Of a DNA stretch of 64,000 bases, positions 40,842-63,066 are shown one piece after another (the first letter of the stretch is position 1; each line of letters begins with the position of its first letter). Both the position numbers and the translations under genes were made by a program. Under the pieces are notes generated by a model. It saw only the letters and a list, made by a program, of their open reading frames with translations. It was not told the DNA's origin and did not search any database. Source of the stretch: an uncultured Planctomycetota bacterium. Lineage in GTDB: Bacteria > Planctomycetota > PLA2 > JAEUHO01. The stretch covers positions 64,001 to 128,000 of the forward strand of contig CAVVXN010000003.1 in NCBI GenBank assembly GCA_963752285.1. Reading direction: 5' to 3'.

Positions 40842-41201
40842 ATGGCGTCGAGCCTGTTCGCTTGGGAGATCGACCATCTGTCCTGGCCCTTCGTGCCGTA
40901 CCTCGGCCGGGAGGACGAAGAGGAGGAGCTGGACGAGGACGAGGAGGACGAAGACGACGTCGACGACGAGGAGGAAGAAGAGGACGACGAAGAGCTCGAG
41001 GAGGAAGAGGAAGAAGAAAAAGAAGAGGAAGAGGAAGAGGAAGAGGAGGAGGACGAGGAAGAAGAGGACGAGGAGCCCGACGACGACGAAGAAGAGGACC
41101 TCGAGGACCTCGAAGAGGAAGAAGAGGACGAGGACGACGACTTCGAGGACGACGACGACGACTGGGACGACGACGACGACGACGACGACTGGGACGACTG
41201 A
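40842..41201 (+). CDS. small, extremely acidic (poly-Asp/Glu) protein
   Basis: GAGGAGG RBS 7 nt before the ATG; 23-aa aromatic head then about 96 residues almost all D/E; mixed GAA/GAG/GAC codons hold the frame. Confidence 0.7.
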   Translation: MASSLFAWEIDHLSWPFVPYLGREDEEEELDEDEEDEDDVDDEEEEEDDEELEEEEEEEKEEEEEEEEEEDEEEEDEEPDDDEEEDLEDLEEEEEDEDDDFEDDDDDWDDDDDDDDWDD

Positions 41202-49054: not shown

Positions 49055-50947
49055 ATGAGCTTCACCGTTCAGGACGCCGAGCGCCTGTACGGGATCGACG
49101 CCTGGGGACACGGCTACTTCCGCGTGAACCCGCAGGGGCACCTCTGCGTCCATCCCGACCGCGAGGAACGGGGCATCGACCTCCTCCACCTCGTGTCGCG
49201 CCTGAAGCGGCGCCGGGTCCGGTTCCCCGCGCTGCTGCGCTTCCCGCAGATCCTGCACGCGCGCGTGGAAGAGATCTTCGGGGCGTTCGAGCGAGCGATC
49301 GAGGAGTACGGCTACCCCCAGCCGTACCGCGGCGTCTACCCGATCAAGGTCAACCAGCAGCGCGACGTGATCGACGAGCTGACCCGCGCGGGACGCGGAC
49401 GCGGTCTCGGCCTGGAGGCGGGGAGCAAGGCCGAGCTGGCCATCGCGCTCTCCCAGCGCCTCGACCGGGACGCCCTGATCATCTGCAACGGTTACAAGGA
49501 CAAGCCGTACATCCGCCTCGCGCTCCGCGGCGTGGCGCTCGGGAAGCGGGTGTTCCTCATCGTGGAGAAGCCGCAGGAGGTCCCGCTCATCGCCGCCGTC
49601 GCCCGCGAGACGGGCATCTCTCCCCTGCTCGGGATGCGCATCCGGCTCCGGGCCCGCGGCTCGGGCAAGTGGGAGAAGTCGGGCGGGAGCGAGGCGAAGT
49701 TCGGGCTGAGCACGCAGGAGCTGCTCGACGCCGTCGCCCTGCTTCGGCGGCACGAGCTCATCGACGGTTTCCGTCTCCTCCACTTCCACGTCGGCAGTCA
49801 GATCCCCGAGATCAAGAAGATCAAGAACGCCGTGAAGGAGGGCGCGCGGATCTACGCGAAGCTCCGGGCCGACGGCTGCCCGATGGAGTTCCTGGACGTC
49901 GGTGGGGGTCTGGGCGTCGATTACGACGGGAGCGGCACGTCGTTCGAGGCCAGCATGAACTACACGGTCTCGGAGTACGCGCGCGACGTCGTCTACAACG
50001 TCCAGGCCGTCTGCGACGCCGAGGAGGTGCCGCCGCCCGTCCTGGTGAGCGAGTCCGGCCGGGCCCTCGTCGCGTACCACGCGATGGTGCTCATGGAGGT
50101 TCGCGGGCAGAACCTCAGCCTCGACGGCGAGGCGATCCTCCTGCCCGAGGACGTCCACGAGGGCGTGCGCGAGCTCCACGAGATCTACAAGGGTGTCACG
50201 AGGAAGAACCACCGCGAGTCGCTGCACGACGCCGAGGAGATGCGTGACGTCCTCCTCGGCCACTTCGACCTGGGGTACCTGTCGCTCCGGGACCGCGCGC
50301 TGACCGAGCGCCTGGTGCAGGCCATCGCGGTCCGCGCGCTGGCCTACGCGGACGGCGAGAAGTACGTGCCCGAGGAGATCGAGCTCCTCAAGAAGCGGCT
50401 GATCGCGAAGTACATCGCGAACTTCAGCGTCTTCCAGTCGATCCCCGACTCCTGGGCGCTCGACCAGCTCTTCCCCATCGTGCCCATCCACCGCCTCGGG
50501 GAGCGGCCGACGGTGCGCGCGACGCTCTGCGACGTGACCTGCGACTCGGACGGGGAGGTGGACCGATTCACCGACCTGAGGGACGTGAAGGACGCGCTCG
50601 AGCTGCACCGACTCCAGGAGGGGAAGCCGTACTACCTCGCCGTCCTGCTCGTGGGCGCGTACCAGGACGTGCTCGGCGACTACCACAACCTCTTCGGCCG
50701 CGCGGACGAGGCCATGGTGACGCTCGGCAAGGGCGGCGCACGCGTGAACCGCGTCATGCCCGGCGACGATTCCGACGACGTGCTGAAGCTCTTTCGGCAC
50801 GACCCCGAGGGGATGGTGTCCTCGATCCACGAGCAGGCGCGAACGGAGATCCGCGAACGCCGCCTCACCCGCGCCGAGGCGAACGAGATCCTCGCCGAGT
50901 ACCGCGAGGCCCTCGAAGGCTACACCTACCTCGACTTCTCCGAATAG
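49055..50947 (+). CDS. speA: biosynthetic arginine decarboxylase
   Basis: YPIKVNQ, GLEAGSKAE, CNGYKD, HFHVGSQ, DVGGGLG, ESGRA, TCDSDG and GAYQ motifs. Confidence 0.96.
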   Translation: MSFTVQDAERLYGIDAWGHGYFRVNPQGHLCVHPDREERGIDLLHLVSRLKRRRVRFPALLRFPQILHARVEEIFGAFERAIEEYGYPQPYRGVYPIKVNQQRDVIDELTRAGRGRGLGLEAGSKAELAIALSQRLDRDALIICNGYKDKPYIRLALRGVALGKRVFLIVEKPQEVPLIAAVARETGISPLLGMRIRLRARGSGKWEKSGGSEAKFGLSTQELLDAVALLRRHELIDGFRLLHFHVGSQIPEIKKIKNAVKEGARIYAKLRADGCPMEFLDVGGGLGVDYDGSGTSFEASMNYTVSEYARDVVYNVQAVCDAEEVPPPVLVSESGRALVAYHAMVLMEVRGQNLSLDGEAILLPEDVHEGVRELHEIYKGVTRKNHRESLHDAEEMRDVLLGHFDLGYLSLRDRALTERLVQAIAVRALAYADGEKYVPEEIELLKKRLIAKYIANFSVFQSIPDSWALDQLFPIVPIHRLGERPTVRATLCDVTCDSDGEVDRFTDLRDVKDALELHRLQEGKPYYLAVLLVGAYQDVLGDYHNLFGRADEAMVTLGKGGARVNRVMPGDDSDDVLKLFRHDPEGMVSSIHEQARTEIRERRLTRAEANEILAEYREALEGYTYLDFSE

Positions 50948-50951
50948 GCGC

Positions 50952-51053
50952 TCGGCGCTCTGAGAGGCCAGTTCGCGGCCCTTCCTCCTCCTTGCGTGCA
51001 TTCGCACGCGGCGTCGTCGTCATGGCCACTCCTTTGGCCTCTCAGAGCGCCGA
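50952..51053. repeat. structured head module, copy 1 (19-bp inverted arms around a 64-nt core)
   Basis: tcggcgctctgagaggcca (50952-50970) and tggcctctcagagcgccga (51035-51053) form a perfect inverted repeat; core 50971-51034 is identical to 61532-61595. Confidence 0.9.
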
Positions 51054-51077
51054 TCGCGTGCGGGCGTGTTGGCGTGC

Positions 51078-51540
51078 GGGCTCGCGGGCCCGCCTTCGGC
51101 GGGGCCGCGTCGCGGCGACCGCGGGGGGGCTCGCGGGGCCGCCTTTGGCGGCGCCGCATCGTGCGGTGTGGCGGTGGGCTCGCGGGCCCGCCTTTGGCGG
51201 GGCCGCGTCGCGGCGACCGCGGGGGGGCTCGCGGGGCCGCCTTTGGCGGCGCCGCATCGTGCGGTGTGGCGGTGGGCTCGCGGGCCCGCCTTTGGCGGGG
51301 CCGCGTCGCGGCGACCGCGGGGGGGCTCGCGGGGCCGCCTTTGGCGGCGCCGCATCGTGCGGTGTGGCGGTGGGCTCGCGGGGCCGCCTTTGGCGGGGCC
51401 GCGTCGCGGCGACCGCGGGGGGGCTCGCGGGGCCGCCTTTGGCGGCGCCGCATCGTGCGGTGTGGCGGTGGGCTCGCGGGCCCGCCTTTGGCGGGGCCGC
51501 GTCGCGGGGTACCGGGACGGGCTCGCGGCTTCGCCGCATG
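51078..51540. repeat. tandem array of 9 palindromic units plus 1 truncated unit, 49-bp period, alternating A/B types
   Basis: GGGCTCGCGGG(C/G)CCGCCTTYGGCGG(G/C)GCCGC starts at 51078, 51127, 51176, 51225, 51274, 51323, 51372, 51421 and 51470; remnant at 51519. Confidence 0.92.
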
Positions 51541-51575
51541 CGCCCTTCGTCACCGGTCCGGACTAGGGGGAGTAG

Positions 51576-51828
51576 GGAGCCGGAGCAATTTGTCCGGATC
51601 CGTCCAGAACACCCTTGCCGTCCACTCGCGTCGTTCGCGACTGATTCGGACAAATTGCTCGGGCTCCGTACGTCCCAAGCCGCGTCCGCTGGCCGAGGAC
51701 CGCCGCGCCGCGTCCGCTGGCCGACTACCGCTGCGCCGCGTTCGGGCCGTTGGAGCCCGGGTCTGCCGCCCTGCGAGCGCCGGTCCGCCCGGCGGATTCG
51801 GACGAATTGCTCTGGCTCCGTACGTCCC
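51576..51828. repeat. 25-bp inverted repeat plus a second direct copy of the right arm
   Basis: 51576-51600 versus 51643-51667: inverted, 2 mismatches. 51643-51676 versus 51795-51828: direct, 2 mismatches in 34 nt. Confidence 0.75.
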
Positions 51829-51839
51829 CGTACGTCCAG

Positions 51840-53093
51840 TCAGGGGGCCTTGTCGGGGGGGAACGTCAGGAGGTGGCCCAGCTTCTCCGCCTTGGCGCGG
51901 AGGTAGCGCTCGTTCTGGCTCGTGGCCGGCATCTCGATCGGGATCCGCTCCACGATGTCGAGGCCGTAGCCCTTGAGCGCCCGGTACTTGACCGGGTTGT
52001 TCGTGAGGAGACGGAGCTGCCGCACGCCGAGGTCGTAGAGGATCTGCGCGCCGACGCCGTAGTCGCGGTGGTCGGGCTTGAACCCGAGGTGCTCGTTCGC
52101 CTCGACCGTGTCCAGCCCGTCCTGGTCCTGGAGGTGGTACGCGCGGATCTTGTTGACCAGCCCGATCCCCCGGCCCTCCTGCCGCATGTAGAGGATCACC
52201 CCGCGCCCGGCGACCGCGATCCGCCGCTGGGCCGCCGCGAGCTGCTGCCCGCAGTCGCACCGGAGCGAGCCGAACACGTCCCCCGTGAGGCACTCGCTGT
52301 GCGCGCGCACGAGGAGTGGTTCCTCGATCGGCGGGTTGGGCTGGCCTTCCGTGGGCAGCGGGATCCCGAGGGTCAGCGCCATGTGCGGCTCGGGGTCCGT
52401 CCGGGCCGAGTAGACGAGGACGTCGAACTCGCCGTGGCGCGTCGGCAGGTGGGCCGTCGTCTCGAGGTGGATCAGGCGCTCGTGGCGCCGCCGCCACGCG
52501 ATGACGTCCCGGACGCTGCAGAGCTTCAGGTCGTGCTCCGTGGCGAAGCGCTCGAGGTCGGGGAGCCGGGCCATCGTTCCGTCGGGGAGCATCAGCTCGC
52601 TGATCACCCCGATCGGCTTCAGCCCCGCGAGGCGGCACAAGTCGATCGAGCCCTCGGTCTGCCCCGCGCGGCGGAGCACGCCGTCGGGGTGTCCACGGAT
52701 CGGGTAGATGTGGCCGGGCCGCGCGAGGTCCTCGGGCGAACACTCGTCCCGCGCGATCGTCTCGATCGTGGTCGCGCGATCGGCCGCGCTGACGCCCGTC
52801 GTGACGCCCGCGCGCGCCTCCACCGAGACCGTGAACTGCGTGCCGAAGCGGGACGAGTTGACGGAAGACTCGACCTGGAGGGGGAGCTCCAGCGCGTCGG
52901 CCTTCTCACGGGGGAGCGTCACGCAGACGATGCCGCTCGTGTGGCGGAGCATGAACGCGATCTTCTGCGGCGTGACCTTCTCCGCCGCGAGCACGAGATC
53001 GCCCTCGTTCTCGCGGTCCGGGTCGTCCACGAGGATGACCATCCGACCCGATCGGAGCTCGTCCAGGATCTCGGGGATGGGGGCGAACGGCAT
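51840..53093 (-). CDS. ribBA: bifunctional DHBP synthase / GTP cyclohydrolase II
   Basis: DRENEGD, TTGVSAADR, RAHSECLTGDVFGSLRCDCG, QEGRGIGL and LLTNNP motifs. Confidence 0.96.
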   Translation of the reverse strand: MPFAPIPEILDELRSGRMVILVDDPDRENEGDLVLAAEKVTPQKIAFMLRHTSGIVCVTLPREKADALELPLQVESSVNSSRFGTQFTVSVEARAGVTTGVSAADRATTIETIARDECSPEDLARPGHIYPIRGHPDGVLRRAGQTEGSIDLCRLAGLKPIGVISELMLPDGTMARLPDLERFATEHDLKLCSVRDVIAWRRRHERLIHLETTAHLPTRHGEFDVLVYSARTDPEPHMALTLGIPLPTEGQPNPPIEEPLLVRAHSECLTGDVFGSLRCDCGQQLAAAQRRIAVAGRGVILYMRQEGRGIGLVNKIRAYHLQDQDGLDTVEANEHLGFKPDHRDYGVGAQILYDLGVRQLRLLTNNPVKYRALKGYGLDIVERIPIEMPATSQNERYLRAKAEKLGHLLTFPPDKAP

Positions 53094-53253
53094 TGGTCGT
53101 CGGTTCCTCGGTCGGACGGTCGATGGTACGCCGCACCGGACCGGGGGACCCGCCCCGACCGGGGTCCGTCGCGAATCGCGCTCGAGACCGGGGAAGTGGC
53201 TCTCCCGGGGGAAGCCTTCGCGGCGTATGATGCGCCGGGAGGCCGGGAAGGGC

Positions 53254-53757
53254 ATGACGGGCGAAGCGAAGGTCAGGTCGGCCCGGCGTCAGGACACGGC
53301 CGCGCTCGCGGATCTTCGGGTCCAGTACCTGGCCGAGATGGCTCGTCTCGAGCCCCGCCTCCAGCTCCTGCCGGACGTGCGGGACCGGACCGAGCACGCG
53401 ATCCCGATCTGGCTCGACCAGGAGGATCGGATCCTCCTCGTCGCCGAGACCGCGGTCTCCGAGCACGGCCCGTCCGATCTCGTCGGCTACGCGACGGGCG
53501 TCTCGACGGTCTGGCCCCCGGTGTTCCGCAACCAGCACGTGGGCGAGGTGAGCGAGCTCTACGTGATCCCGTCCTGGCGGGGGCGTGGCGTGGGAAAGGA
53601 GCTCCTCCGGACGCTCTCCGAGGGGCTGACCCGGACCGGCGCGAGCGTGCTGCGCGCGCCGGTCGCGAGCCGGAACGCCGACAGCCTGGCCCGCTTCCGC
53701 GCCCAGGGATACCGGACGCTCCAGATCGTGCTGCAGAAGGGGATGGAGGACGTCTGA
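53254..53757 (+). CDS. GNAT acetyltransferase
   Basis: LYVIPSWRGRGVG acetyl-CoA-binding motif. Confidence 0.85.
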   Translation: MTGEAKVRSARRQDTAALADLRVQYLAEMARLEPRLQLLPDVRDRTEHAIPIWLDQEDRILLVAETAVSEHGPSDLVGYATGVSTVWPPVFRNQHVGEVSELYVIPSWRGRGVGKELLRTLSEGLTRTGASVLRAPVASRNADSLARFRAQGYRTLQIVLQKGMEDV

Positions 53758-54257
53758 TGGAGGGCGTTCCGATCCGCAACGCGCGGCGCGGCGACATCCC
53801 CGCCCTGCTGCTCCTCTGGGCCGCGATGGTCGAGGAGAACGCGCGCCTCGAGCCGCGCCTCGCGTCGCACCCCCACGCCCGCGAGCACATGGCCGGTCAG
53901 TTCAGCACGTGGCTCCAGGACCCCGATCGCGACGTCGTCGTCGCGGAGGAGAACGGCCGGCTCGTCGTGGGATTCGCCGCGGCGCGCATCGCGTCCGGGA
54001 CCGGATGGCACAAGCCCGTGCGCGTCGGAGAGGTGACGGACTGCTTCGTCGTGCCGCCGCGGCGCCGCCAGGGCATCGCGCGCCGCATGGTGGGGCGGCT
54101 CCTCGACCTGCTCTACGAGAAGGACGCCGAGATCGTCCGCTGTCGCGTCGTCGGGGCGAACGCCGGGGCGCTCGCGTTCTGGCGGTCCATGGGCTGGGAC
54201 GACCTCGAAGAAGTCCTCGAGAAGGAGGAGGGGGCCGACCCGGTCCCCGCCCCTTGA
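53757..54257 (+). CDS. GNAT acetyltransferase (paralog)
   Basis: FVVPPRRRQGIA and N..ALAFW motifs; TGATG overlap with the previous gene. Confidence 0.85.
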   Translation: MEGVPIRNARRGDIPALLLLWAAMVEENARLEPRLASHPHAREHMAGQFSTWLQDPDRDVVVAEENGRLVVGFAAARIASGTGWHKPVRVGEVTDCFVVPPRRRQGIARRMVGRLLDLLYEKDAEIVRCRVVGANAGALAFWRSMGWDDLEEVLEKEEGADPVPAP

Positions 54258-54377
54258 TCGACGGCCCTCGGCACCGCGCGCCGAGGCGGGTCGAGCCTCC
54301 GAGACGACGAACGGCGTAACCCATTGGACGCACGTTGGTTGTGTCGCCTCGCGCGCGCCCTTCGAGGTCGCCGCGCC

Positions 54378-54630
54378 TCGACTCCCGGTGTCGGGAAAAC
54401 TCGACGCGCCGCCGGGCGAGTTTTGGGGGCTCGCGGCCTATCCCACACGGCCGGGCAGGCCGATAGAGGCGGGCCGGCGAGAGTCGGTGGGTCCCCGGGA
54501 TCCGGGGGCTCGTCCGAGCCGAGGCAATCGCCCTGCAAGGTAACCTTCCACCACATCCCTTATCTCACAAGTCCCCTCGGTGAGGACGCCCGGCCCCGGT
54601 GGGTTTCGCCCATCGGGGCCATCTTCTTTC
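54378..54630 (+). ncRNA. candidate structured small RNA (family unassigned)
   Basis: No credible ORF; series of short hairpins, a C/U/A-rich unpaired tract and a terminator-like hairpin. Confidence 0.3.
54592..54630 (+). terminator. putative intrinsic terminator
   Basis: 12-bp stem ggccccggtggg/cccatcggggcc (one G-U on the + strand), loop tttcg, followed by atcttctttc. Confidence 0.55.
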
Positions 54631-54655
54631 CGCCCCGACGCCCGTTCCCTTCGTG

Positions 54656-55057
54656 TCACACGGATTGCGCGCCGGACGGGACCACCTGTCCCGCGCGCGC
54701 CCACGCCGCGGGGTCCGCCGGCGGGTCCGCGAGGTCGAGGAGCGGGGGTTCGGCGGCCCGGTCGGGCTCGCCGACGCGGAGCACGGCGCCGGCGCTCTCG
54801 AGCGTCCGAGCGAGCGACGCGAGGTCCACGAGCTCCGGCACCACGCCGAACCCCGCGAGGAGCTCGATCGTCCGCTCGACCTCGGGGGGGAGGTCTTCGG
54901 CAAAGAGCGCCGGGGCGCCGGGACCCGTCACGAGCACGCGGACCGGGCGATCCGCCGCGACCAGGGCTGCCACCACCCGGAGGAGCTCCAGCGCGCCCTC
55001 CGAGAGTCGGGAGGTCGCGAACAGCGCGACCACGGGCGCGGCGGGCGGCGCCGTCAC
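54656..55057 (-). CDS. DsrF/TusC-like small protein
   Basis: 'ELLRVVAALVAADRPVRVLVTGPG' resembles the DsrE/F fold; GTGA overlap with the partner gene. Confidence 0.5.
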   Translation of the reverse strand: MTAPPAAPVVALFATSRLSEGALELLRVVAALVAADRPVRVLVTGPGAPALFAEDLPPEVERTIELLAGFGVVPELVDLASLARTLESAGAVLRVGEPDRAAEPPLLDLADPPADPAAWARAGQVVPSGAQSV

Positions 55058-55368
55058 GGGAACAGCCCCCACAGCCGGTCGGTCGGGGCGAGGTCCCGGG
55101 CGAAGGACACGAGGCTCGACCAGCGCACCCACGCCGGCAGGTCGTCGGCCGAGAGTCGGCGCGCCCCGGCGCTCCGGGCGCAGAGCGCGACCTGGACGAC
55201 CCCCTCCTTCGCCAGCGCCTCGAGCCGCGCGCTCTCTGTCCAGTCGAGACCGGGGCCCGTGAGGATCGCGCGGCAGCCCCCCGCCGCCCGAGCGGCCGAC
55301 GCGAGACGGTCGAGCCAGGGACCCGCCCCGGGAGCGGCGCGCGGCCCGGCGAACACGGCAGCGAGCAC
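55054..55368 (-). CDS. DsrE/TusD-like small protein
   Basis: GGAGGAGG RBS before GTG 55368; 'VQVALCARSA..R' retains a Cys; C-terminal 'SSL..F....DRL'. Confidence 0.55.
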   Translation of the reverse strand: MLAAVFAGPRAAPGAGPWLDRLASAARAAGGCRAILTGPGLDWTESARLEALAKEGVVQVALCARSAGARRLSADDLPAWVRWSSLVSFARDLAPTDRLWGLFP

Positions 55369-55448
55369 GCGCGGCTCCTCCTCCGGGCGGCCCCTTCCCG
55401 CGTGTCCCGGCTGGTAGCATTCCACGTCCCGGGGGAGGGGGACACGCG

Positions 55449-56045
55449 TTGGCGGGACCGGACCCGGACCAGCACCTCGTTCGGGAGCTCTCGTCGAACG
55501 ACCCCGCGGCGAGACGTCGCGCCCTGGCCCGCCTGTACGAGCGGTACCAGCGCCGGGTCCTCAACGTCGCCTGGCGGGTCATCGGCGACTGGGCGTCCGC
55601 CCAGGACGTGACCCAGGAGGTGTTCCTGGACCTCGGGCGGCGCATCGGGAGCTTCCGGGGCGAGTCGGGCCTCTCCTCGTGGATCTACCGTGTCGCGGTG
55701 AACCGGGCGATCGACACCCGGCGACACGAGCGGCGCCGGCCGGCCTGGTCGATGGACCACCTGCCCGCCGACGACTCTGCACGCCGTCCGGACGGCCAGT
55801 CCACGAGCGTGCCCGGCCTCCCCGTCGACGACGGGCGCTCGGACCGCGTCCACGAGGCCATGCGACGCCTCTCGCCGAAGCACCGCGCCATCCTCGTGTT
55901 GCGCTACCTCGAGGGACTCTCGTACGAGGAGCTGGTGGAGGTCCTCGGGTGCTCCATGGGGACGGTCAAGAGCCGCCTGAACCGCGCCCACGCGGCCATC
56001 CGGGCCGAGCTCCTCTCGCTCGGGGAGGACGACCGGGTCAATTGA
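55449..56045 (+). CDS. ECF-type RNA polymerase sigma factor
   Basis: AQDVTQEVF, SWIYRVAVN and LRYLEGLSYEE...GTVKSRLNRA motifs. Confidence 0.92.
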   Translation: MAGPDPDQHLVRELSSNDPAARRRALARLYERYQRRVLNVAWRVIGDWASAQDVTQEVFLDLGRRIGSFRGESGLSSWIYRVAVNRAIDTRRHERRRPAWSMDHLPADDSARRPDGQSTSVPGLPVDDGRSDRVHEAMRRLSPKHRAILVLRYLEGLSYEELVEVLGCSMGTVKSRLNRAHAAIRAELLSLGEDDRVN

Positions 56046-56098
56046 GGACCGCCCCGCGCGTTCTGGGTACGGTCGCCTGACCCCAGACGGAGCCGCGC

Positions 56099-56674
56099 AT
56101 GCTCGACGAGCAGAAGAAGTCCCCCCGGGCGCCCGCGATCGAGCGCCGCCTGTTGAAGGCGCGGAGCGTCCTCCTCTTCGGGCCCATCGAGCCCAAGCTG
56201 ACCCAGCGTGTCATCCAGCAGATCTTCGTGCTCAACGAGATCAGTCGCACGAAGCCGATCCGCCTCTTCGTGAACAGCCCGGGAGGCTGGGCGGACGACG
56301 GCTTCGCGATCTACGACGTCGCGCGGTTCGTGGAGGCCCCCGTCTACACGATCTGCACCGGGATCGCGGCCAGCGCAGCGACCATCGTGATGGTGAGCGG
56401 CGAGAAGGGCCACCGCTACGTGCTCCCCAACGCGCGGCTCATGCTGCACCAGCCGAGCAGCGGCGCGCGCGGGACCGCCGCGGACATCGCCATCACGGCG
56501 AAGGAGATCATCCGGCTCCGCGAGAAGGCGAACGAGCTGTTCGCGCGCGAGACCGGCCATCCGATCGAGAAGATCCACAAGGACATGCAGCGCGACTACT
56601 GGCTGAGCGCCGAAGAGGCGGTCAAGTACAAGCTCGTGGACAAGATCGTGCGGTCCGAGAAGGACATCAAGTAG
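56099..56674 (+). CDS. clpP: ATP-dependent Clp protease proteolytic subunit
   Basis: NSPGG, AAS (catalytic Ser), MLHQP (His) and RDYWLS (Asp). Confidence 0.93.
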   Translation: MLDEQKKSPRAPAIERRLLKARSVLLFGPIEPKLTQRVIQQIFVLNEISRTKPIRLFVNSPGGWADDGFAIYDVARFVEAPVYTICTGIAASAATIVMVSGEKGHRYVLPNARLMLHQPSSGARGTAADIAITAKEIIRLREKANELFARETGHPIEKIHKDMQRDYWLSAEEAVKYKLVDKIVRSEKDIK

Positions 56675-56683
56675 CGCGGCCCG

Positions 56684-58102
56684 TCACATCCGGGCCAGCC
56701 GGCCGATCGCGCCGACGGCCGCGCACTCGAGGCGCGTGACCTCCGCCGCCGGGATCGCCTGCCCCGACGCGAGGCCGGGCTCCAGCCGGGCGACGGTCGC
56801 GAGGTCCGCCACGAGCGCCTCCACGTCGGCGTCCTCGAGCGTGCCCCGGGGCAGGGGCGCCTCGCCCCTCGCGCCCGCGATCGACCACGTCCGCGCGAAG
56901 AGCGCGAGGAGCACGGCCACCTCGGCGGGCCCGAGACGGGGGAGGCGTTTTCCGGCCGCGAGGTCCCGGGCGAGGTCGCCGGCGCTCCCGAACGGGAGAC
57001 CGGGGACCTCGTCCGCGAGGCCCTCGACCAGGCGTGCGCGGAGCGGCGCCTTTCGCGTCGCCTCCCGCGGGAGGGCGCGCGCCGCGTGCCGCACCGCGGC
57101 CGTCCCGAGGCGGGGCAGGACCCGCGACCCTAGAAGCTCCTCCAGCGCGCGGAGCACGCCGAGCAGCGCGACCGCGCGCTCCGGGGGGAGGCGCCCGTCC
57201 TCGTGGACGGCCGGGGCGCGGAGGAGCGCGCGGACGGCCGGCTCCGCCTCCGGGGGCAGCGTGCCCTCCCCGCCCACCAGGGCCGCCACGGCCGCCCGCG
57301 GGTCGGAGCCCGACGGGTCCTCGATCTCGATCTCGAGGCCGACGACCTCGTCGCCCCCGAGCGGGCGCGGTCTCGCGCGCGCGGTCGCGCGCGCGGGATG
57401 GAGCCAGGCGAGCACCCGGGCCGCGCGGTCCACGGCGGGCGGCGTCTCGCCCTCGCGGGTCCCCTCCTCCACGCCGATCCGCAGGCGCACGAGCCGTCCG
57501 CCTCGCTCGACGGCGACGCGCCACGGCCCCGCCTCCGGGAGCGCCGTCCGCGCCGCGAGCAGGAGGTCGAGGAGCCCGTGCGGGTCGGTCGCGACGGGCG
57601 GCGGGACCCGGTCGAAGGGGCGCCCCCTCGGCTCGGCCGCCTGGGCGAGGAGGCGGCCGAGGTCCACGGGCCGCGCCTCCGACAGGACGCGCTTCTCGTC
57701 GTAGGCGGCCTGGAACGCCTCGAGCCGCTGGAGGGCCGCCTCCATGCCGGCGAGCACGCGGCGGCGCGCGTCGGCCTCGGCGGCGCGGCCCGCGCGCCGG
57801 TCGGACTCGAGGGCCGCGGCCGCTTCGAGGTGGAGCGCGGTCGTCTCGGCGGCGACCACGAACGGGATCTCCGCCCAGCCGCGCTCGCGGTCGCGGAGGC
57901 GTCCCTCGAGGACCTGCGCGGCGCTCTCTCGCGCGTCGGCGGCGATCGCGAGGATCTCGAGGTCGGCCTCGTCCTTGAGGGTCGCGAGGCCGATGGCCTC
58001 GCCGCGCCACGCGAGGCGTCGCTCCTGGAGCACCTTTCCGAGCCGCCAGCCGAGGCGCCGAGCCCGGTCCCGCGCGACGAAGAGCTCGGGGCGTTCCTCC
58101 AC
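56684..58102 (-). CDS. hypothetical protein
   Basis: Long ORF with ordinary amino-acid composition filling the gap between clpP and polA; TAGGAT 6 nt before the GTG. Confidence 0.6.
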   Translation of the reverse strand: MEERPELFVARDRARRLGWRLGKVLQERRLAWRGEAIGLATLKDEADLEILAIAADARESAAQVLEGRLRDRERGWAEIPFVVAAETTALHLEAAAALESDRRAGRAAEADARRRVLAGMEAALQRLEAFQAAYDEKRVLSEARPVDLGRLLAQAAEPRGRPFDRVPPPVATDPHGLLDLLLAARTALPEAGPWRVAVERGGRLVRLRIGVEEGTREGETPPAVDRAARVLAWLHPARATARARPRPLGGDEVVGLEIEIEDPSGSDPRAAVAALVGGEGTLPPEAEPAVRALLRAPAVHEDGRLPPERAVALLGVLRALEELLGSRVLPRLGTAAVRHAARALPREATRKAPLRARLVEGLADEVPGLPFGSAGDLARDLAAGKRLPRLGPAEVAVLLALFARTWSIAGARGEAPLPRGTLEDADVEALVADLATVARLEPGLASGQAIPAAEVTRLECAAVGAIGRLARM

Positions 58103-58169
58103 CCCCGCATCCTACCGGTCCCGCCCGCCCGTTTGCGCCCCGCGGCGGAACCGACCACAATCGCCGCCC

Positions 58170-60962
58170 ATGGCCGAGCCCCTCACCCGCTCCGACCGGC
58201 CGCGCCTCTTCCTGATCGACGGCATGGCCCTCGCGTACCGCGCCCACTTCGCGCTGATGCGGACCCCGCTCGTCACGAGCCGCGGACAGCCGACGAGCGC
58301 GGTGTTCGGCTTCCTCGCCGCGCTCGACCGGATCCGGGAGCAGGAGCGGCCGGAGGAGCTCGTCGTCGTCTTCGACGCGAAGGAGCCGACCTTCCGGCAC
58401 CGCGCGTACCCGGCCTACAAGGCCACGCGCGAGAAGATGCCCGACGAGATGCTCCCGCAGCTCGCGTGGATCCAGCGGGCCGTCGAGGGCGAGGGCTTGC
58501 CCTTCGTCCGGGTGCCGGGCTGGGAGGCGGACGACCTGATCGGCGCCCTCGCCCGGCAGGGCGAGGCGGCGGGCCGCGAGGTGTGGATCGTGTCGGGCGA
58601 CAAGGACATGTGCCAGCTCGTGACCGATCACGTCCGCCTCTACAACGTGATGAAGCCCGGGCAGGCCGCCGTCGAGCTCGTGGGGCCGGCGGAGGTGGAG
58701 ACGCGATTCGGCGTTCCGCCCGGGAAGGTCGTGGACGTCCTCGCCCTGATGGGCGACACGTCGGACAACGTCCCCGGGGTCCCGGGCGTCGGTCCCAAGC
58801 GCGCGACCGAGCTGGTCGTCCGCTTCGGGTCGCTCGACGAGGTGCTCCTCCACGCCGGCGAGGTCACGCAGAAGAAGCTCCGCGAGAACCTGCTCGAGAA
58901 CGTCGAGAAGGCGCGGCTCAGTCGGGACCTCGTCACGATCGACGTGGCGGCTCCGGTCCGGCTCGAGGACCTGCGCCACGGCGAGCGAGCCCCCGAGCGC
59001 CTGAAGGACCTCTACCTCGAGCTCGAGCTCCAGGCGCGGCTCGAGTCGCTCGAGACCGTCTCGGCGCCCGTCACGGACGTCCGCTACCACCGCGTGGACA
59101 CGCCCGAGAAGCTCGATCGCCTGGTCGAAGACCTCGCCGCGACGAAGGGGAAGGGCGGCTTCACCTTCGACACCGAGACCACCTCGGTGGACCCGATGCG
59201 GGCGGACCTCGTCGGGCTCTCCTTCTCGTGGAAGGAGGGCGAGGCGTTCTACGTCCCGGTCAACCTCGACCCGCCGATGTTCGGCTCGACGGCCGGGCGT
59301 CGCGGGGGGGCGGACGGGCGCCTCTTCGACCGTGGCACCGGCGCCGACACCACGGCCGTCCTCGACCGCCTGCGCGGTGTGCTCGAGGACGCGGCGCTCC
59401 CGAAGTCGGGTCAGAACGTGAAGTACGACCTCCACGTGCTCTGGCGCCACGGGGTCCCGGTCCGCGGCGTGGCCTTCGACACGATGGTCGCGGACTGGTG
59501 CGTGGACCCCGGCGGGCGCACCCACAACATCGACGAGATGGCGCTGCGCCGCCTGGGCCTCCGGAAGATCCCCACCACGGAGCTCATCGGGAAGGGAAAG
59601 TCGCAGATCACGATGGCCGAGGTGCCCGTCGAGGACGTCGCGCACTATGCGTGCGAGGACGCCGACGTCGCCCTCCGTCTCGAGCACCAGATCGCGCCCG
59701 AGCTCGTCGCGCGCGGTCTCGACGGGCTCTTCCGTGACGTCGAGGTGCCGCTGATCCCCGTGCTGACGCGGATGGAGCACCGGGGCGTTCGTCTGGACGT
59801 GGCGCTGCTCGCGCGCATCTCGGCCGACCTCGGCACGCGCGCCGACGCGGCCGAGGCCCGCATCCACGAGCTCGCGGGGGAGCAGTTCAACGTGCGCTCG
59901 AACGCGCATCTCGGTCGCATCCTCTTCGAGCGCCTGAAGCTCCACGAGGCGTTGGGACGGCGCCAGCCGAAGCGCACGGCGAAGGGCACCGGTTTCGCGA
60001 CGGACGAGCAGACCCTGCTCGAGCTCTCGCGGCACCACGCGCTCCCGGCGGCCGTGGTCGAGTACCGGACGCTCACGAAGCTCAAGAGCACGTACGTGGA
60101 CGTTCTCCCTCTCGCGGTGAACCCCGAGACCGGGCGCGTCCACACGACCTTCCACCAGACGGGAACGGCCACCGGGCGTCTCTCGTCGAGCGACCCGAAC
60201 CTCCAGAACGTCCCCGTGCGCAGCGAGGAGGGCCGCGCGATCCGCCGCGCCTTCGTCCCGGAGGACGGCTGGTGGATGCTCTCGGCGGACTACAGCCAGA
60301 TCGAGCTGCGCCTGCTCGCCCACCTGTCGGGCGACGCCGGCCTGATCGAGGCGTTCCGCTCCGGCCTCGACATCCACCGCGCGACCGCGGCGCGCGTCTT
60401 CAAGGTCGCGCCCGAGGAGGTGACGCCCGTCCTGAGGAGCCGCGCGAAGGCCGTGAACTTCGGCGTCATCTACGGCATGGGCCCGCAACGCCTCGCGCGG
60501 GACACCGAGGTGACGCTCGACGAGGCGCGCCGGTTCATCGACCAGTACTTCGACACGTACCCCGGTGTCCGCGCCTTCCTCGACCGGACCGTCCGCGAGG
60601 CCCGCGAGCAGGGGTACGTGACGACGCTGCTCGGTCGCAAGCGCTGGCTCCCCGAGCTCACGAGCAAGGACCCGCGCGTGCGGGCGCAGGCCGAGAACGT
60701 CGCCGTGAACACGCCGATGCAGGGGACCGCGGCCGACCTGATCAAGCTCGCCATGATCCGCATCGACCGCCGCCTGAGCGAGGAGGGGCGGCGCTCCGCG
60801 ATGCTCGTGCAGATCCACGACGAGCTGCTCTTCGAGGTCCCGGAGGACGAGAAGGAGGAGCTCGGCCGGCTCGTCGAGACGGAGATGACGCGGGCGATGG
60901 ACCTGGACGTGCCGATCGTCGTGGACGCGGGCTGGGGGCGGAGCTGGGAGGAGGCGCACTGA
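58170..60962 (+). CDS. polA: DNA polymerase I
   Basis: 5'-3' exonuclease (LIDG, EADD, GDTSDN), 3'-5' exonuclease (FDTET) and polymerase (ADYSQIELR, KAVNFGVIYG, QIHDEL). Confidence 0.97.
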   Translation: MAEPLTRSDRPRLFLIDGMALAYRAHFALMRTPLVTSRGQPTSAVFGFLAALDRIREQERPEELVVVFDAKEPTFRHRAYPAYKATREKMPDEMLPQLAWIQRAVEGEGLPFVRVPGWEADDLIGALARQGEAAGREVWIVSGDKDMCQLVTDHVRLYNVMKPGQAAVELVGPAEVETRFGVPPGKVVDVLALMGDTSDNVPGVPGVGPKRATELVVRFGSLDEVLLHAGEVTQKKLRENLLENVEKARLSRDLVTIDVAAPVRLEDLRHGERAPERLKDLYLELELQARLESLETVSAPVTDVRYHRVDTPEKLDRLVEDLAATKGKGGFTFDTETTSVDPMRADLVGLSFSWKEGEAFYVPVNLDPPMFGSTAGRRGGADGRLFDRGTGADTTAVLDRLRGVLEDAALPKSGQNVKYDLHVLWRHGVPVRGVAFDTMVADWCVDPGGRTHNIDEMALRRLGLRKIPTTELIGKGKSQITMAEVPVEDVAHYACEDADVALRLEHQIAPELVARGLDGLFRDVEVPLIPVLTRMEHRGVRLDVALLARISADLGTRADAAEARIHELAGEQFNVRSNAHLGRILFERLKLHEALGRRQPKRTAKGTGFATDEQTLLELSRHHALPAAVVEYRTLTKLKSTYVDVLPLAVNPETGRVHTTFHQTGTATGRLSSSDPNLQNVPVRSEEGRAIRRAFVPEDGWWMLSADYSQIELRLLAHLSGDAGLIEAFRSGLDIHRATAARVFKVAPEEVTPVLRSRAKAVNFGVIYGMGPQRLARDTEVTLDEARRFIDQYFDTYPGVRAFLDRTVREAREQGYVTTLLGRKRWLPELTSKDPRVRAQAENVAVNTPMQGTAADLIKLAMIRIDRRLSEEGRRSAMLVQIHDELLFEVPEDEKEELGRLVETEMTRAMDLDVPIVVDAGWGRSWEEAH

Positions 60963-61257
60963 GGGCGCCGGTCCCGGTGCCACCCCGCGGCGCGCACGGG
61001 GACGAGCGCGCGCCCGCGCGCCGGGCGCCCTCCTCGTCACGAGTCGAGAGGGTTCGCGCTCTCGTCCTCGGGGGTTCGGGGGCACGCACGGTCCCGTTCC
61101 CTCCCGCCGTTCGTGGCTACGACGGGTGCCTGCCGACGTGCGGACCGCCGCGACGACCCGCGGGGGCCGCCCCGCGACGCCGCTCGACCCGGGACGGGAC
61201 GTTCACGCGAACATCCGCCCCGGTGACGCCGGCGCCGGGTCGCGCTATCCTCGCGGT

Positions 61258-61506
61258 ATGTCCGAGCGCCCGAAGCGACGTACCGAGGTCACCAGCGGTC
61301 TCTTGGGGATCGGTTTCGACGGAGCCGACGGCCACCGACGCGTGACCACGGGCGACAACTTCCTTCTCCTCGGCGGCAGCGAGGAGACGCACGAGCGCAT
61401 GCAGGACGTCGTCATTCGGATCAACCAGAAGCTGAAGCGGAAGGGGAAGACGCTTCGTGAGCTTTCGGAGTCCGAATTCGAGGACATCGCCAAAGACAGC
61501 CTCTAA
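61258..61506 (+). CDS. small conserved-looking hypothetical protein
   Basis: 'LLGIGFDGADGHRRVTTGDNFLLLGGSEETHERMQ'; normal amino-acid composition; TATCCT 6 nt before the ATG. Confidence 0.72.
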   Translation: MSERPKRRTEVTSGLLGIGFDGADGHRRVTTGDNFLLLGGSEETHERMQDVVIRINQKLKRKGKTLRELSESEFEDIAKDSL

Positions 61507-61509
61507 CCC

Positions 61510-61617
61510 CCAGCGGCGCGCTGAGGGCCCCGTTCGCGGCCCTTCCTCCTCCTTGCGTGCATTCGCACGCGGCGTCGTCGTCATGGCCACTCCTTGGGGC
61601 CCTCAGCGCGCCGCTGG
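61510..61617. repeat. structured head module, copy 2 (22-bp inverted arms around the same 64-nt core)
   Basis: ccagcggcgcgctgagggcccc (61510-61531) and ggggccctcagcgcgccgctgg (61596-61617) form a perfect inverted repeat. Confidence 0.9.
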
Positions 61618-61633
61618 CGTGGCGGCGGGTGCT

Positions 61634-62098
61634 GGCGGGCTCGCGGGGCCGCCTTTGGCGGCGCCGCATCGCGGAGCGGCGGGTGGCGGGCGGGCTCGCG
61701 GGGCCGCCTTTGGCGGCGCCGCATCGCGGAGCGGCGGGTGGCGGGCGGGCTCGCGGGGCCGCCTTCGGCGGCGCCGCATCGCGGAGCGGCGGGTGGCGTG
61801 GCGGGCTCGCGGGGCCGCCTTTGGCGGCGCCGCATCGCGCGGCGTGGGGGCGGGCTCGCGGGGCCGCCTTCGGCGGCGCCGCATCGCGGGGGCGGGGCTG
61901 GCGGGCTCGCGGGGCCGCCTTTGGCGGCGCCGCATCGCGGAGCGGCGGGTGGCGGGCGGGCTCGCGGGGCCGCCTTTGGCGGCGCCGCATCGCGGAGCGG
62001 CGGGTGCTGGCGGGCTCGCGGGGCCGCCTTCGGCGGCGCCGCATCGCGCGGCGTGGCGGGCGGGCTCGCGGGGCCGCCTTTGGCGGCGCCGCATCGCG
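61634..62098. repeat. tandem array of 9 palindromic 40-bp units with 9-16 nt G-rich linkers
   Basis: GGCGGGCTCGCGGGGCCGCCTTYGGCGGCGCCGCATCGCG starts at 61634, 61689, 61744, 61800, 61849, 61900, 61955, 62009 and 62059. Confidence 0.92.
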
Positions 62099-62205
62099 GC
62101 GGTGGTGGCGCCGCGTCGCGGGCGGTGGTGGCGGGTGTGAAAATGCGCGACCCGGGAAACGTGCGGCCTAGGATGCCGCCGGGGACTCTACGCGAGGGCT
62201 GGATC

Positions 62206-63066
62206 ATGGCGGGAGCGGTGTCGAAGCTGGGCGTGGTCGGTTGCGGGCTCATGGGGTCCGGCATCGCCGAGATCGGTGCGAAGGCCGGGCTCGACGTGCT
62301 CGTCCGCGAGGTGGACGACGCGCTCTGCCAGCGGGGCCGGGCGGGCATCGAGAAGTCGCTCGGTCGCGCCGTCGAGAAGGGCAAGCTCGAGGCGGCCGAG
62401 CGCGACCGGATCCTCGGTCGGATCCGGTTCACGACCGAGCTGTCGGCCTTCGCCGACCGCGACCTGGTCATCGAGGCGATCCTGGAGAACATGGGCGCGA
62501 AGAAGGAGCTCTTCGCGACACTCGACGGGATCGCCGGTCCCGACGCCATCTTCGCGAGCAACACGTCGTCGCTCCCGGTCGGCGACATGGCCGCCGCCAC
62601 GCGTCGGCCCGAGCGGTTCGTCGGCCTCCACTTCTTCAACCCGGTCCCGGTGATGCGCCTCGTCGAGGTCGTCCGCACGCTCGAGACGACGGACGAGGTG
62701 TTCGACACGGCGGTCGCCTTTGCCGAGGCGGTCGGCAAGACCGTCGTGCGCACGAAGGACACGCCGGGGTTCGCCGTGAACCTCCTCCTCGTCCCGTACC
62801 TCCTCGACTCGATCCGGGCGCTCGAGAAGGGCGTGGCCTCGGCGCGCGACATCGACACGGGCATGAAGCTCGGCTGCGGCCACCCGATGGGGCCCCTCGA
62901 GCTCCTCGACTTCGTCGGCCTCGACACGACGCTCTACATCGCCGACATCATGTTCCACGAGTTCAAGGACATCCGGTACCAGGCGCCTCCGATGCTCCGG
63001 CGGCTCGTGGCGGCCGGTCGCACGGGACGGAAGAGCGGCCGCGGCTTCTACGACTACAAGAAGTAG
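62206..63066 (+). CDS. hbd: 3-hydroxybutyryl-CoA dehydrogenase
   Basis: GCGLMGSGIA, EAILE, ASNTSS, GLHFFNP, GHPMGPL and GRKSGRGFY motifs. Confidence 0.92.
   Translation: MAGAVSKLGVVGCGLMGSGIAEIGAKAGLDVLVREVDDALCQRGRAGIEKSLGRAVEKGKLEAAERDRILGRIRFTTELSAFADRDLVIEAILENMGAKKELFATLDGIAGPDAIFASNTSSLPVGDMAAATRRPERFVGLHFFNPVPVMRLVEVVRTLETTDEVFDTAVAFAEAVGKTVVRTKDTPGFAVNLLLVPYLLDSIRALEKGVASARDIDTGMKLGCGHPMGPLELLDFVGLDTTLYIADIMFHEFKDIRYQAPPMLRRLVAAGRTGRKSGRGFYDYKK

What the first reader, a model, noticed from the sequence alone, without database searches (positions are those of the whole stretch)
50952..62098. Two copies of a bipartite non-coding element: covarying structured head plus a 9-unit palindromic array
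Seen in the sequence: at 50952-51540 and 61510-62098, starting a few nt after a + strand stop codon, there is a head module followed by an array. The 64-nt core (GTTCGCGGCCCTTCCTCCTCCTTGCGTGCATTCGCACGCGGCGTCGTCGTCATGGCCACTCCTT) is identical in both copies. It is enclosed by perfect inverted arms of 19 and 22 bp that differ at 5 of 19 aligned positions, and every change is mirrored in the partner arm. About 20 nt downstream come nine same-orientation palindromic units of one family. Inference: compensatory arms around an invariant core imply selection on, or templated repair of, a fold. The fixed head-then-array order suggests one propagating or expanding unit, a REP/BIME-like system with a leader-like module. 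No transposase or cas gene lies in the window, so any enzyme would have to act in trans.
Basis: partly seen in the sequence, partly recalled or inferred. Interest (0 to 1): 0.85.

Follow-up and report, generated by a model that had tools for sequence, protein, structure and literature searches.

The report
Zipper-hairpin repeat with private tandem tails
The two elements are real copies of a small non-coding mobile repeat of one family of uncultured planctomycete bacteria that settles next to stop codons, carries a hairpin "zipper" that apparently folds on only one DNA strand, and in this genome has grown tails of tandem hairpins: a new variant of a familiar kind of element, whose protected core has no known job yet.

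Summary
Observation confirmed. The head occurs 25 times in this genome; 21 of 23 loci lie within 55 nt of a co-oriented stop codon; all 107 array units lie behind a head. The head is family-wide (23/28 genomes, 0/11 in the sister family), but arrays are almost private to this genome (25/25 versus 4/128). In relatives it sits inside TIR-bounded MITEs: IS630-type ends in the sister species, 11-bp target duplications in another genome. Here those ends are absent. The core is a zipper: single G-C pairs covary (117/129) between fixed TC/TC mismatches, which read as tandem G·A on the antisense strand. The same design rides in two further MITE families, with filled and empty forms, and resembles mycobacterial MIRU by eye. 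No cognate RAYT, RT, autonomous element or Rfam match was found. The scan noted this element before on other DNA of this genome (e1-7752795, e1-7752796, e1-2778499). Verdict: a new variant of MITE-borne stem-loop repeats; how the TIR-less copies spread is open.

The parts
49055..50947 (+). speA (arginine decarboxylase); host gene whose TAG stop precedes copy 1
   Evidence: NCBIfam NF003763 above cut-off; the sister species has only 12 nt between the speA and ribBA stops
50952..50970 (+). Head 1, left arm (19 bp)
50971..51034 (-). Head 1 core. Zipper halves 50982-50993 and 51011-51022; single pairs 50985-51019, 50988-51016, 50991-51013; inner hairpin 50994-51009. The tandem G·A reading is on the minus strand
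   Evidence: the choice of strand is inference
51035..51053 (+). Head 1, right arm
51078..51507 (+). Array 1: nine type-U1 hairpin units in two alternating variants (98-bp dimer period); triloops GAA/AAA on the minus strand
51508..51560 (+). Terminal hairpin module also found at the end of the array at G000:C1:411197-411257
   Evidence: 91.8% over 61 nt
51572..51823 (.). Separate GTAG/GTAC-tagged REP-like inverted doublet (51572-51671) plus a third copy (to 51823); not part of the head-array family
   Evidence: matches at more than 10 other genome sites without heads
51840..53093 (-). ribBA, convergent host gene
   Evidence: NF006803, 554 bits, just under its cut-off of 569; RibA and RibB domain models above cut-off
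61258..61506 (+). 82-aa conserved hypothetical ORF whose TAA precedes copy 2
   Evidence: ortholog in the sister species; no NCBIfam family
61510..61531 (+). Head 2, left arm (22 bp)
61532..61595 (-). Head 2 core, identical to head 1
61596..61617 (+). Head 2, right arm
61637..62099 (+). Array 2: nine U1 units with G-rich linkers of varying length
62206..63066 (+). 3-hydroxybutyryl-CoA dehydrogenase (hbd), downstream host gene
   Evidence: NF005875 above cut-off

Best explanation
The head is the conserved ~110-nt structured core of a lineage-specific family of non-autonomous IS derivatives (MITEs). SHOWN: in relatives it lies inside ~230-240-bp elements with terminal inverted repeats that inserted at stop-codon-containing targets (CTAG, or an 11-bp site centred on T-S-A); orthologous sites are empty; the core stays far better conserved than the ends; and it keeps a hairpin in which single covarying G-C pairs alternate with fixed 2x2 mismatches. 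INFERRED: resident DDE transposases moved the elements in trans. The core is a passenger, not needed for transposition (head-less MITEs exist), and is held after insertion by selection or conversion. It most likely acts as a one-strand DNA hairpin (tandem G·A zipper on the strand opposite the mRNA) bound by an unidentified protein. In this genome a derivative lost the terminal repeats and gained a linker plus a GAA-capped hairpin unit. Linker-plus-unit then expanded locally by slippage or unequal recombination, the first unit being protected and distal ones decaying by C-to-T change on the sense strand. Arms are kept perfect by arm-to-arm templated correction or selection, even where the left arm is host coding sequence.
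For: TIRs and perfect 11-12-bp direct repeats in 16 of 29 complete copies of one relative. CTAG-bounded copies in sister species G001, whose right end shares the terminal 11 nt with an IS630-family fragment in the same genome. Head columns 94-100% identical against 79-90% outside, in 31 and 17 aligned copies. Head-less MITEs with a common junction in 3 of 29 G001 loci; 3 of 8 IS1182-ended elements in G000 are empty and 4 carry a zipper. Empty orthologous sites. Zipper pairs complementary in 117 of 129 distinct heads, in three states; two zipper pairs flip C-G/G-C in 13 and 10 of 27 hand-picked rows. Unit triloops on the antisense strand: 79 AAA, 52 GAA, 9 CAA, 4 GCA of 146; GCGNAGC-type hairpins with a sheared G-A pair are much more stable as DNA than as RNA (PMC13037366, passages). 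Decay away from the head in 14 of 16 variable arrays, 0 of 20000 permutations, C>T 29 of 65 changes. The conserved asnS end (T-x-P-stop in 5 of 5 orthologs) forms the left arm and is mirrored in the right arm.
Against: No TIR or target duplication flanks head-plus-array in this genome, and the outer parts of the G001 MITE do not match it, so DDE transposition cannot directly explain how 23 TIR-less loci arose, nearly all with a unit at a similar offset. None of 18 G001 sites carries a head in G000, so they are not simply inherited. No transposase with the 11-bp-TSD ends was found. 12 of 129 heads break a zipper pair. The mismatches could equally be tandem U·C pairs in the mRNA, and 21 of 23 loci are oriented by transcription, with no clear link to replication direction. 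The two window arrays show little gradient. Units within an array are not independent, so the permutation p-value overstates.
Confidence: 0.55

Rival explanations
1. REP/BIME-like HUH system. The zipper hairpin is the single-strand recognition site of a HUH enzyme acting in trans. It moves head-plus-unit one-endedly, without target duplication, and adds units by nick-primed rolling-circle-like synthesis. MITE forms in relatives are secondary captures.
For: Fixed structured start, variable tail and no TSD in this genome; 0 solo units. A strand-asymmetric imperfect stem is how TnpA-REP and IS200/605 enzymes tell strands apart (PMC8266576, passages). A rolling-circle-like model of BIME amplification is published (PMC3333891, passages). 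The genome holds one RAYT-like gene (70 bits, below the NCBIfam cut-off of 80) and four IS91-type Y2 matches.
Against: No head beside the own RAYT-like gene, which has other repeats, beside 29 further Y1 loci or beside the four Y2 loci. No GTAG tag. G001 has 43 model matches and no Y1 match at 80% completeness. Dimer periods and identical decayed blocks fit slippage.
Confidence: 0.22
2. RNA-level element: the head folds in the 3' untranslated region of the upstream gene's mRNA (long stem with U·C/C·U internal loops), where it pauses or terminates transcription, blocks 3' exonucleases or binds an RNA protein. The host keeps it for that reason; arrays add further stem-loops.
For: 21 of 23 loci are co-oriented just after a stop. 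MITEs next to genes are known to change mRNA stability by folding (PMC3733652, passages). C-to-U changes keep pyrimidine-pyrimidine mismatches. The sense-strand fold is strong (z = -6.0 and -8.1).
Against: In G001 the stop codon is used at either end of the element, and a related zipper element lies in the opposite orientation at the site orthologous to copy 2. No U-tract terminator. No Rfam match. Sites are not conserved between species: head after rpsI in 2 of 25 genomes. Unit loops fit DNA GNA-type triloops better than in-register RNA tetraloops (inference).
Confidence: 0.15
3. No current function: a decayed MITE family whose core looks conserved only because copies convert one another and whose arms are perfected by template switching.
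For: Arms are corrected even against host codons; arrays look like ordinary minisatellites.
Against: Template switching should also erase the TC/TC mismatches, yet these are 25-26 of 26 invariant in BLAST-found copies and persist across 23 genomes while the single pairs between them flip in concert. The same design recurs in families with no sequence match to the head.
Confidence: 0.08

Closest known systems
IS630-related MITEs with a folded centre (ERIC, NEMIS/Correia, RUP, YPAL; listed as MITEs in PMC3733652; the IS630 link and ERIC's conserved central inverted repeat are recalled)
   Same: Non-coding, 100-300 bp, next to gene ends, strong stem-loop; the sister-species form has IS630-type CTAG ends.
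   Different: Core with a covarying mismatch zipper; the same core sits between different kinds of ends in different genomes; here the ends are gone and tandem tails follow.
Pneumococcal BOX elements, boxA-boxB(n)-boxC
   Same: Fixed head module followed by a variable number of tandem modules, near genes.
   Different: No conserved closing module was found; seven unit types occur; no sequence comparison with BOX was run.
REP/BIME with RAYT (TnpA-REP) (PMC3333891, PMC8266576)
   Same: Imperfect palindromes after stop codons, strand-asymmetric stems, locus-private tandem amplification.
   Different: No GTAG tag, direct rather than inverted units, 110-nt head, no flanked RAYT.
Mycobacterial MIRU (family Myt-11 in the supplement of PMC2267715) and Rickettsia Rpe-5 (same supplement)
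   Same: By eye, Myt-11 copies show an outer stem, a (GAC)n/(GAG)n zipper and an inner hairpin capped by GCGNAGC with all four N, and most listed copies start at TGA. MIRU forms tandem arrays (recalled). Rpe-5 shows GTC/CTC tracts facing each other.
   Different: 50-80 bp and no long arms; the G/A-rich strand follows the TGA, apparently the opposite orientation to this genome's heads; other phyla. No alignment or model search against them was run, so homology is untested.
IS4-family MITEs (PMC2266710: about 10-bp target duplications)
   Same: One relative's form has 13-bp imperfect TIRs and 11-bp duplications of a palindromic target.
   Different: No cognate transposase found; the window's copies lack these ends.

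Membership tests
MITE (DDE-mobilised) | Terminal inverted repeats and target duplication around the window's elements | tested here: not met
   No direct repeat or conserved right end at the G000 loci; G001 outer segments do not hit G000
MITE (DDE-mobilised) | TIRs and target duplication in the homologous elements of relatives | tested here: met
   16 of 29 perfect 11-12-bp repeats; CTAG-bounded copies in G001
MITE (DDE-mobilised) | Ends match a resident transposase-bearing IS | tested here: inconclusive
   G001 form: terminal 11 nt shared with an IS630 fragment; 11-bp-TSD form: none found; G000 form: no ends
MITE (DDE-mobilised) | Non-coding, dispersed, empty orthologous sites | tested here: met
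   Inner loop length varies out of frame; empty sites
REP/BIME | GTAG (or CGTC) tag at the foot of a 20-40-nt palindrome | tested here: not met
   No GTAG at head or units by inspection; the CGTC words lie inside the zipper
REP/BIME | Inverted REP-iREP doublets | tested here: not met
   12 of 13 U1 clusters are single-orientation; the exception is two heads facing each other
REP/BIME | Cognate RAYT flanked by the repeat | tested here: not met
   0 of 30 Y1 loci fetched, out of 38 matches listed in the family; genomes are incomplete
REP/BIME | Single-strand binding and cleavage by TnpA-REP | not testable with these tools
   needs biochemistry
CRISPR array with leader | Unique spacers between repeats | tested here: not met
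   Linkers are near-identical and G-rich within an array; cas genes were not searched
BOX-type modular element | Head, variable tandem middle and conserved closing module | tested here: not met
   Head and tandem middle present, no shared closing module; definition recalled
MIRU | (GAC)n/(GAG)n zipper around an inner hairpin | tested here: met
   By-eye comparison of the head's minus strand with Myt-11
MIRU | Sequence homology and mycobacterial host | tested here: inconclusive
   Host not met (Planctomycetota); homology not tested by alignment; a MIRU-like pattern in viral contigs gave only 5 chance-looking hits
Rfam families | Covariance-model match | tested here: not met
   0 matches at E <= 1 in window 50000-63000; 0 at E <= 0.1 in 7 related loci
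Retroelement-driven repeat | Reverse transcriptase in the genome | tested here: not met
   PF00078: 0 matches in G000, 89% complete

The most novel reading that the evidence does not exclude
The tandem-G·A zipper hairpin is an unrecognised, widespread single-strand DNA signal with its own protein reader or mobiliser. It rides as interchangeable cargo in MITEs with IS630-, IS4-like, IS1182- and IS1380-like ends, can spread without any ends (this genome), copies the host's last codons into its far arm and seeds polar tandem arrays. Mycobacterial MIRU-VNTR units and Rickettsia Rpe-5 would be further instances, so their unexplained origin would become testable through a shared structure.
Probability: 0.2. 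Interest if true: 0.82.

Novelty: new variant of a known kind. Interest (0 to 1): 0.55.

Why it matters
MITE interiors are usually treated as filler. Here the interior is better conserved than the ends in two genomes, keeps non-Watson-Crick positions fixed while the pairs between them flip, and recurs as the same design in families bounded by different IS ends. That gives a concrete, testable structure (which strand folds, what binds) for a class of stop-codon-proximal repeats. The TIR-less, array-seeding form also shows how a dispersed repeat can become a source of private minisatellites. If the likeness to MIRU holds, a structural rule would link repeats of three phyla. If the core only tunes mRNA, or is merely homogenised, it is an ordinary new repeat family.

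Tried and rejected
Coding peptide on the minus strand (SD-like word plus ATG): rejected, since the inner loop length changes the frame between genomes. Enzyme hunt: the own RAYT-like gene, RT, DDE_Tnp_1, IS1182, IS630, IS91-type and family-wide Y1 loci carry no head. No recurrent mobile gene among 519 rough ORFs next to heads in 173 loci (noisy ORF set, output partly cut). Viral contigs: 0 heads. Exact pattern in 290 other genomes of the phylum: 0. Replichore bias: none evident, skew weak. tRNA linkage: no head within 1.5 kb of a tRNA. Conserved site after rpsI: 2 of 25 genomes only. Promoter and terminator consensus: none. No RNA holder listed among the sequencing runs. No empty allele among the joints in four metagenomes. 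Plasmid search with part of a second zipper family: one weak hit, E 0.4. Literature: searches returned nothing; some searches returned 2-3 papers each, and none of the passages read described a tandem-G·A zipper in bacterial repeats. The library lacks most subscription papers, including the original MIRU papers. PMC7999016 (passages) did not state quasi-palindrome correction, so that mechanism rests on recall. MIRU and Rpe-5 could only be compared by eye.
Full report
OBSERVATION. The description is accurate. The 64-nt core is identical at 50971 and 61532, the arms are perfect over 19 and 22 bp and differ at 5 of 19 positions with mirrored changes, and nine units follow each head. Copy 1 follows speA and faces ribBA; copy 2 follows an 82-aa ORF and precedes hbd. 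Unrelated short-read metagenomes hold the speA-head junction and a head-unit join, so an assembly artefact is unlikely, although no listed contig spans a full array. Rfam has no match.

IN THE GENOME. G000 (4.64 Mb, 73% GC, 89% complete) gives 26 BLAST hits to the core. One (C5:1132100) is weak and inside a predicted gene; a pattern and a covariance model each find 25. With two tandem extras and the weak hit set aside, 21 of 23 loci lie within 55 nt of the stop of a co-oriented gene (p = 7e-5 against 0.5; genes from my own codon-model caller). Flanking genes are unrelated housekeeping or unnamed genes. Seven unit types occur, the first unit mostly 41-64 nt after the core. All 107 units found genome-wide at up to about 12% mismatch lie behind a same-strand head (the seeds came from head-linked arrays). 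A profile of the window's units gave 13 clusters, all at heads. No target duplication or shared right end was found.

ARMS. In 20 of 26 copies (six dropped: the weak hit, two tandem extras, three with a shifted register) arm columns 1-18 are 356/360 Watson-Crick, and 12 columns show more than one pair type. Shuffling partners among 22 loci shows locus-specific pairing to position 20 and none beyond. At several loci the gene's stop is the TGA inside the left arm. For asnS the protein ends at the same residue in 5 of 5 orthologs, so host codons form the outer left arm, and the right arm mirrors them exactly. An acyl-CoA dehydrogenase ends at the same length as its G001 ortholog; two other genes tested are shorter than their orthologs. 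Fusion by short deletion followed by arm-to-arm correction would explain this. Quasi-palindrome correction by template switching is recalled, not taken from a call.

THE CORE. Between an outer stem and an inner hairpin, two tracts of (S-T-C) triplets face each other. With the S positions left free, 117 of 129 distinct heads from this genome, GTDB genomes and metagenomes are fully complementary, in three states (97, 12 and 8 copies); 12 are not, 11 of them with the same C·C mismatch. The TC positions were fixed by that pattern, but in BLAST-found copies they are 25-26 of 26 invariant. In 27 rows chosen by hand for diversity (none of the C·C type), 95% of cells pair and two zipper pairs flip in 13 and 10 rows, above all 500 shuffles and all slid controls; relatedness inflates such counts. 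On the antisense strand the mismatches read as tandem G·A steps in a continuous helix; on the sense strand as U·C/C·U. Unit loops on the antisense strand are AAA (79), GAA (52), CAA (9) or GCA (4) of 146. GCGNAGC mini-hairpins contain a sheared G-A pair, and the RNA form of GCGAAAGC melts at 39 C against 76.5 C for DNA (PMC13037366, passages). That tandem G·A steps stabilise DNA stems is recalled. I therefore favour a DNA fold on the antisense strand; this is inference.

RELATIVES. The host lineage is Planctomycetota (titles). The model finds the head in 23 of 28 genomes of the family, 1-87 matches each, and 0 of 11 in the sister family; the exact pattern finds none in 290 other genomes of the phylum. 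Tandem repeats follow 25 of 25 heads here but only 4 of 128 elsewhere (fragmented assemblies may hide some, but G001 has about 10 contigs). In the genome that supplied most loci the head lies inside a 230-bp element with 13-bp imperfect TIRs; 16 of 29 complete copies have perfect 11-12-bp direct repeats centred on T-S-A, 9 imperfect ones and 4 none, and 6 further rows had no right end. This fits IS4-family target lengths (PMC2266710, passages), but no matching transposase was found. In the sister species G001 the head lies in a CTAG-bounded element of about 240 bp whose right end shares 11 terminal nt with an IS630-family fragment of the same genome. In both genomes the head is 94-100% identical between copies and the outer parts 79-90%. 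Of 29 G001 loci found by the terminal motif, 23 carry the head by script and one more by eye, three are head-less with a common junction, and two are partial. Four of 18 G001 sites have adjacent empty flanks in G000 and none has an orthologous head; speA-ribBA is empty in G001.

SAME DESIGN ELSEWHERE. A descriptor scan of G000 revealed further zipper elements with no BLAST match to the head: a CTAG-bounded family with IS1380-like ends (by eye) and a family whose ends match an IS1182 TIR, with 4 filled, 3 empty and 1 other among 8 matches. The supplement of PMC2267715 (passages) shows the MIRU-containing family Myt-11 with (GAC)n facing (GAG)n around a GCGNAGC-capped hairpin, and Rpe-5 with facing GTC/CTC tracts. 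I recalled the MIRU likeness first and then checked it by eye only.

ARRAYS. TCG words decline away from the head in 14 of 16 variable arrays (0 of 20000 permutations), and C>T makes up 29 of 65 changes relative to the first unit, against 4 G>A. Blocks of identical decayed units and dimer periods point to slippage or unequal recombination with a protected first unit rather than CRISPR-like addition. The window's own arrays show little gradient. Base-calling error at methylated sites could add C>T changes but would not obviously be polar.

MECHANISM AND RIVALS. Best reading (0.55): passenger core of DDE-mobilised MITEs, held by a strand-specific fold, here stripped of its ends and seeding minisatellites. 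Its weak point is that it does not show how 23 TIR-less loci arose. The HUH rival (0.22) explains that and has precedent (PMC8266576 and PMC3333891, passages), but no head lies beside any of 27 transposase loci or 54. An mRNA role (0.15; PMC3733652, passages) fits the orientation here but less well in G001. Neutral homogenisation (0.08) does not explain the fixed mismatches.

EARLIER NOTES. The scan saw this element before on other pieces of the same genome: e1-7752796 and e1-7752795 read it as the core of stop-codon-docking MITEs with private minisatellites, and e1-2778499 saw one array. My tests agree. The TIR and TSD of one relative were visible, issued together; the IS630 lead and the BOX comparison were reinforced by those notes. 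e1-7752552 prompted the IS91-type test (negative) and e1-7752714 the tRNA test (negative for the head). The short texts shown did not mention the zipper, the other chassis or the MIRU likeness; a word search gave nothing.

VERDICT. Real, under structural constraint, and a new variant of MITE-borne stem-loop repeats rather than a new system. Interest 0.55, for the zipper shared between chassis and the unexplained spread of the end-less form. Supplements of subscription papers on MIRU, ERIC and BOX could not be seen and may already describe parts of this.

Noticed in passing
G000:C5:414534, C5:1835989, C4:192621 and others (25 BLAST sites): A second zipper family with no BLAST match to the head, about 270 bp and CTAG-bounded in many copies; its ends resemble the TIR of an IS1380-family element in G001 (L092), by eye only.
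   Followed up: partly
G000:C3:153417, C3:245508, C5:942097, C5:2265746 (filled); C1:699114, C5:490021, C5:884543 (empty): A third family starting at TGA, with ends within 3 mismatches in 20 nt of an IS1182 TIR (L200), in filled and empty forms.
   Followed up: partly
window 51572-51823: GTAG/GTAC-tagged REP-like doublet family with more than 10 other sites in the genome; its RAYT was not sought.
   Followed up: partly
L088:60-112 and L092:2775-2900: An IS1182 and an IS1380 each inserted at the CTAG that marks the left end of a related structured MITE.
   Followed up: no
G000:C3:155564 and C3:157882 (L108): Tandem paralogous genes each followed by a head; in the second the gene's own last codons form the left arm and the right arm has changed towards them.
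   Followed up: partly
L260, upstream of hbd in G001: The stop codon orthologous to copy 2 is occupied by a different zipper MITE in the opposite orientation.
   Followed up: partly
L122 (G013:C38) and G000:C5:1771557-1772009: Whole heads repeated in tandem (164- and 183-bp periods).
   Followed up: no
L252, L253 (viral contig): Two copies of a repeat with facing GTC/CTC tracts in a lower-GC context, hinting that the design occurs outside this family.
   Followed up: no
G000:C2:581834-582166 (L207): The IS630-family gene found in this genome appears interrupted (in-frame stop, other DNA upstream).
   Followed up: no
window 40910-41198 and 26265-26378: Coding-type low-complexity repeats (acidic tract; 12-bp period).
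   Followed up: no
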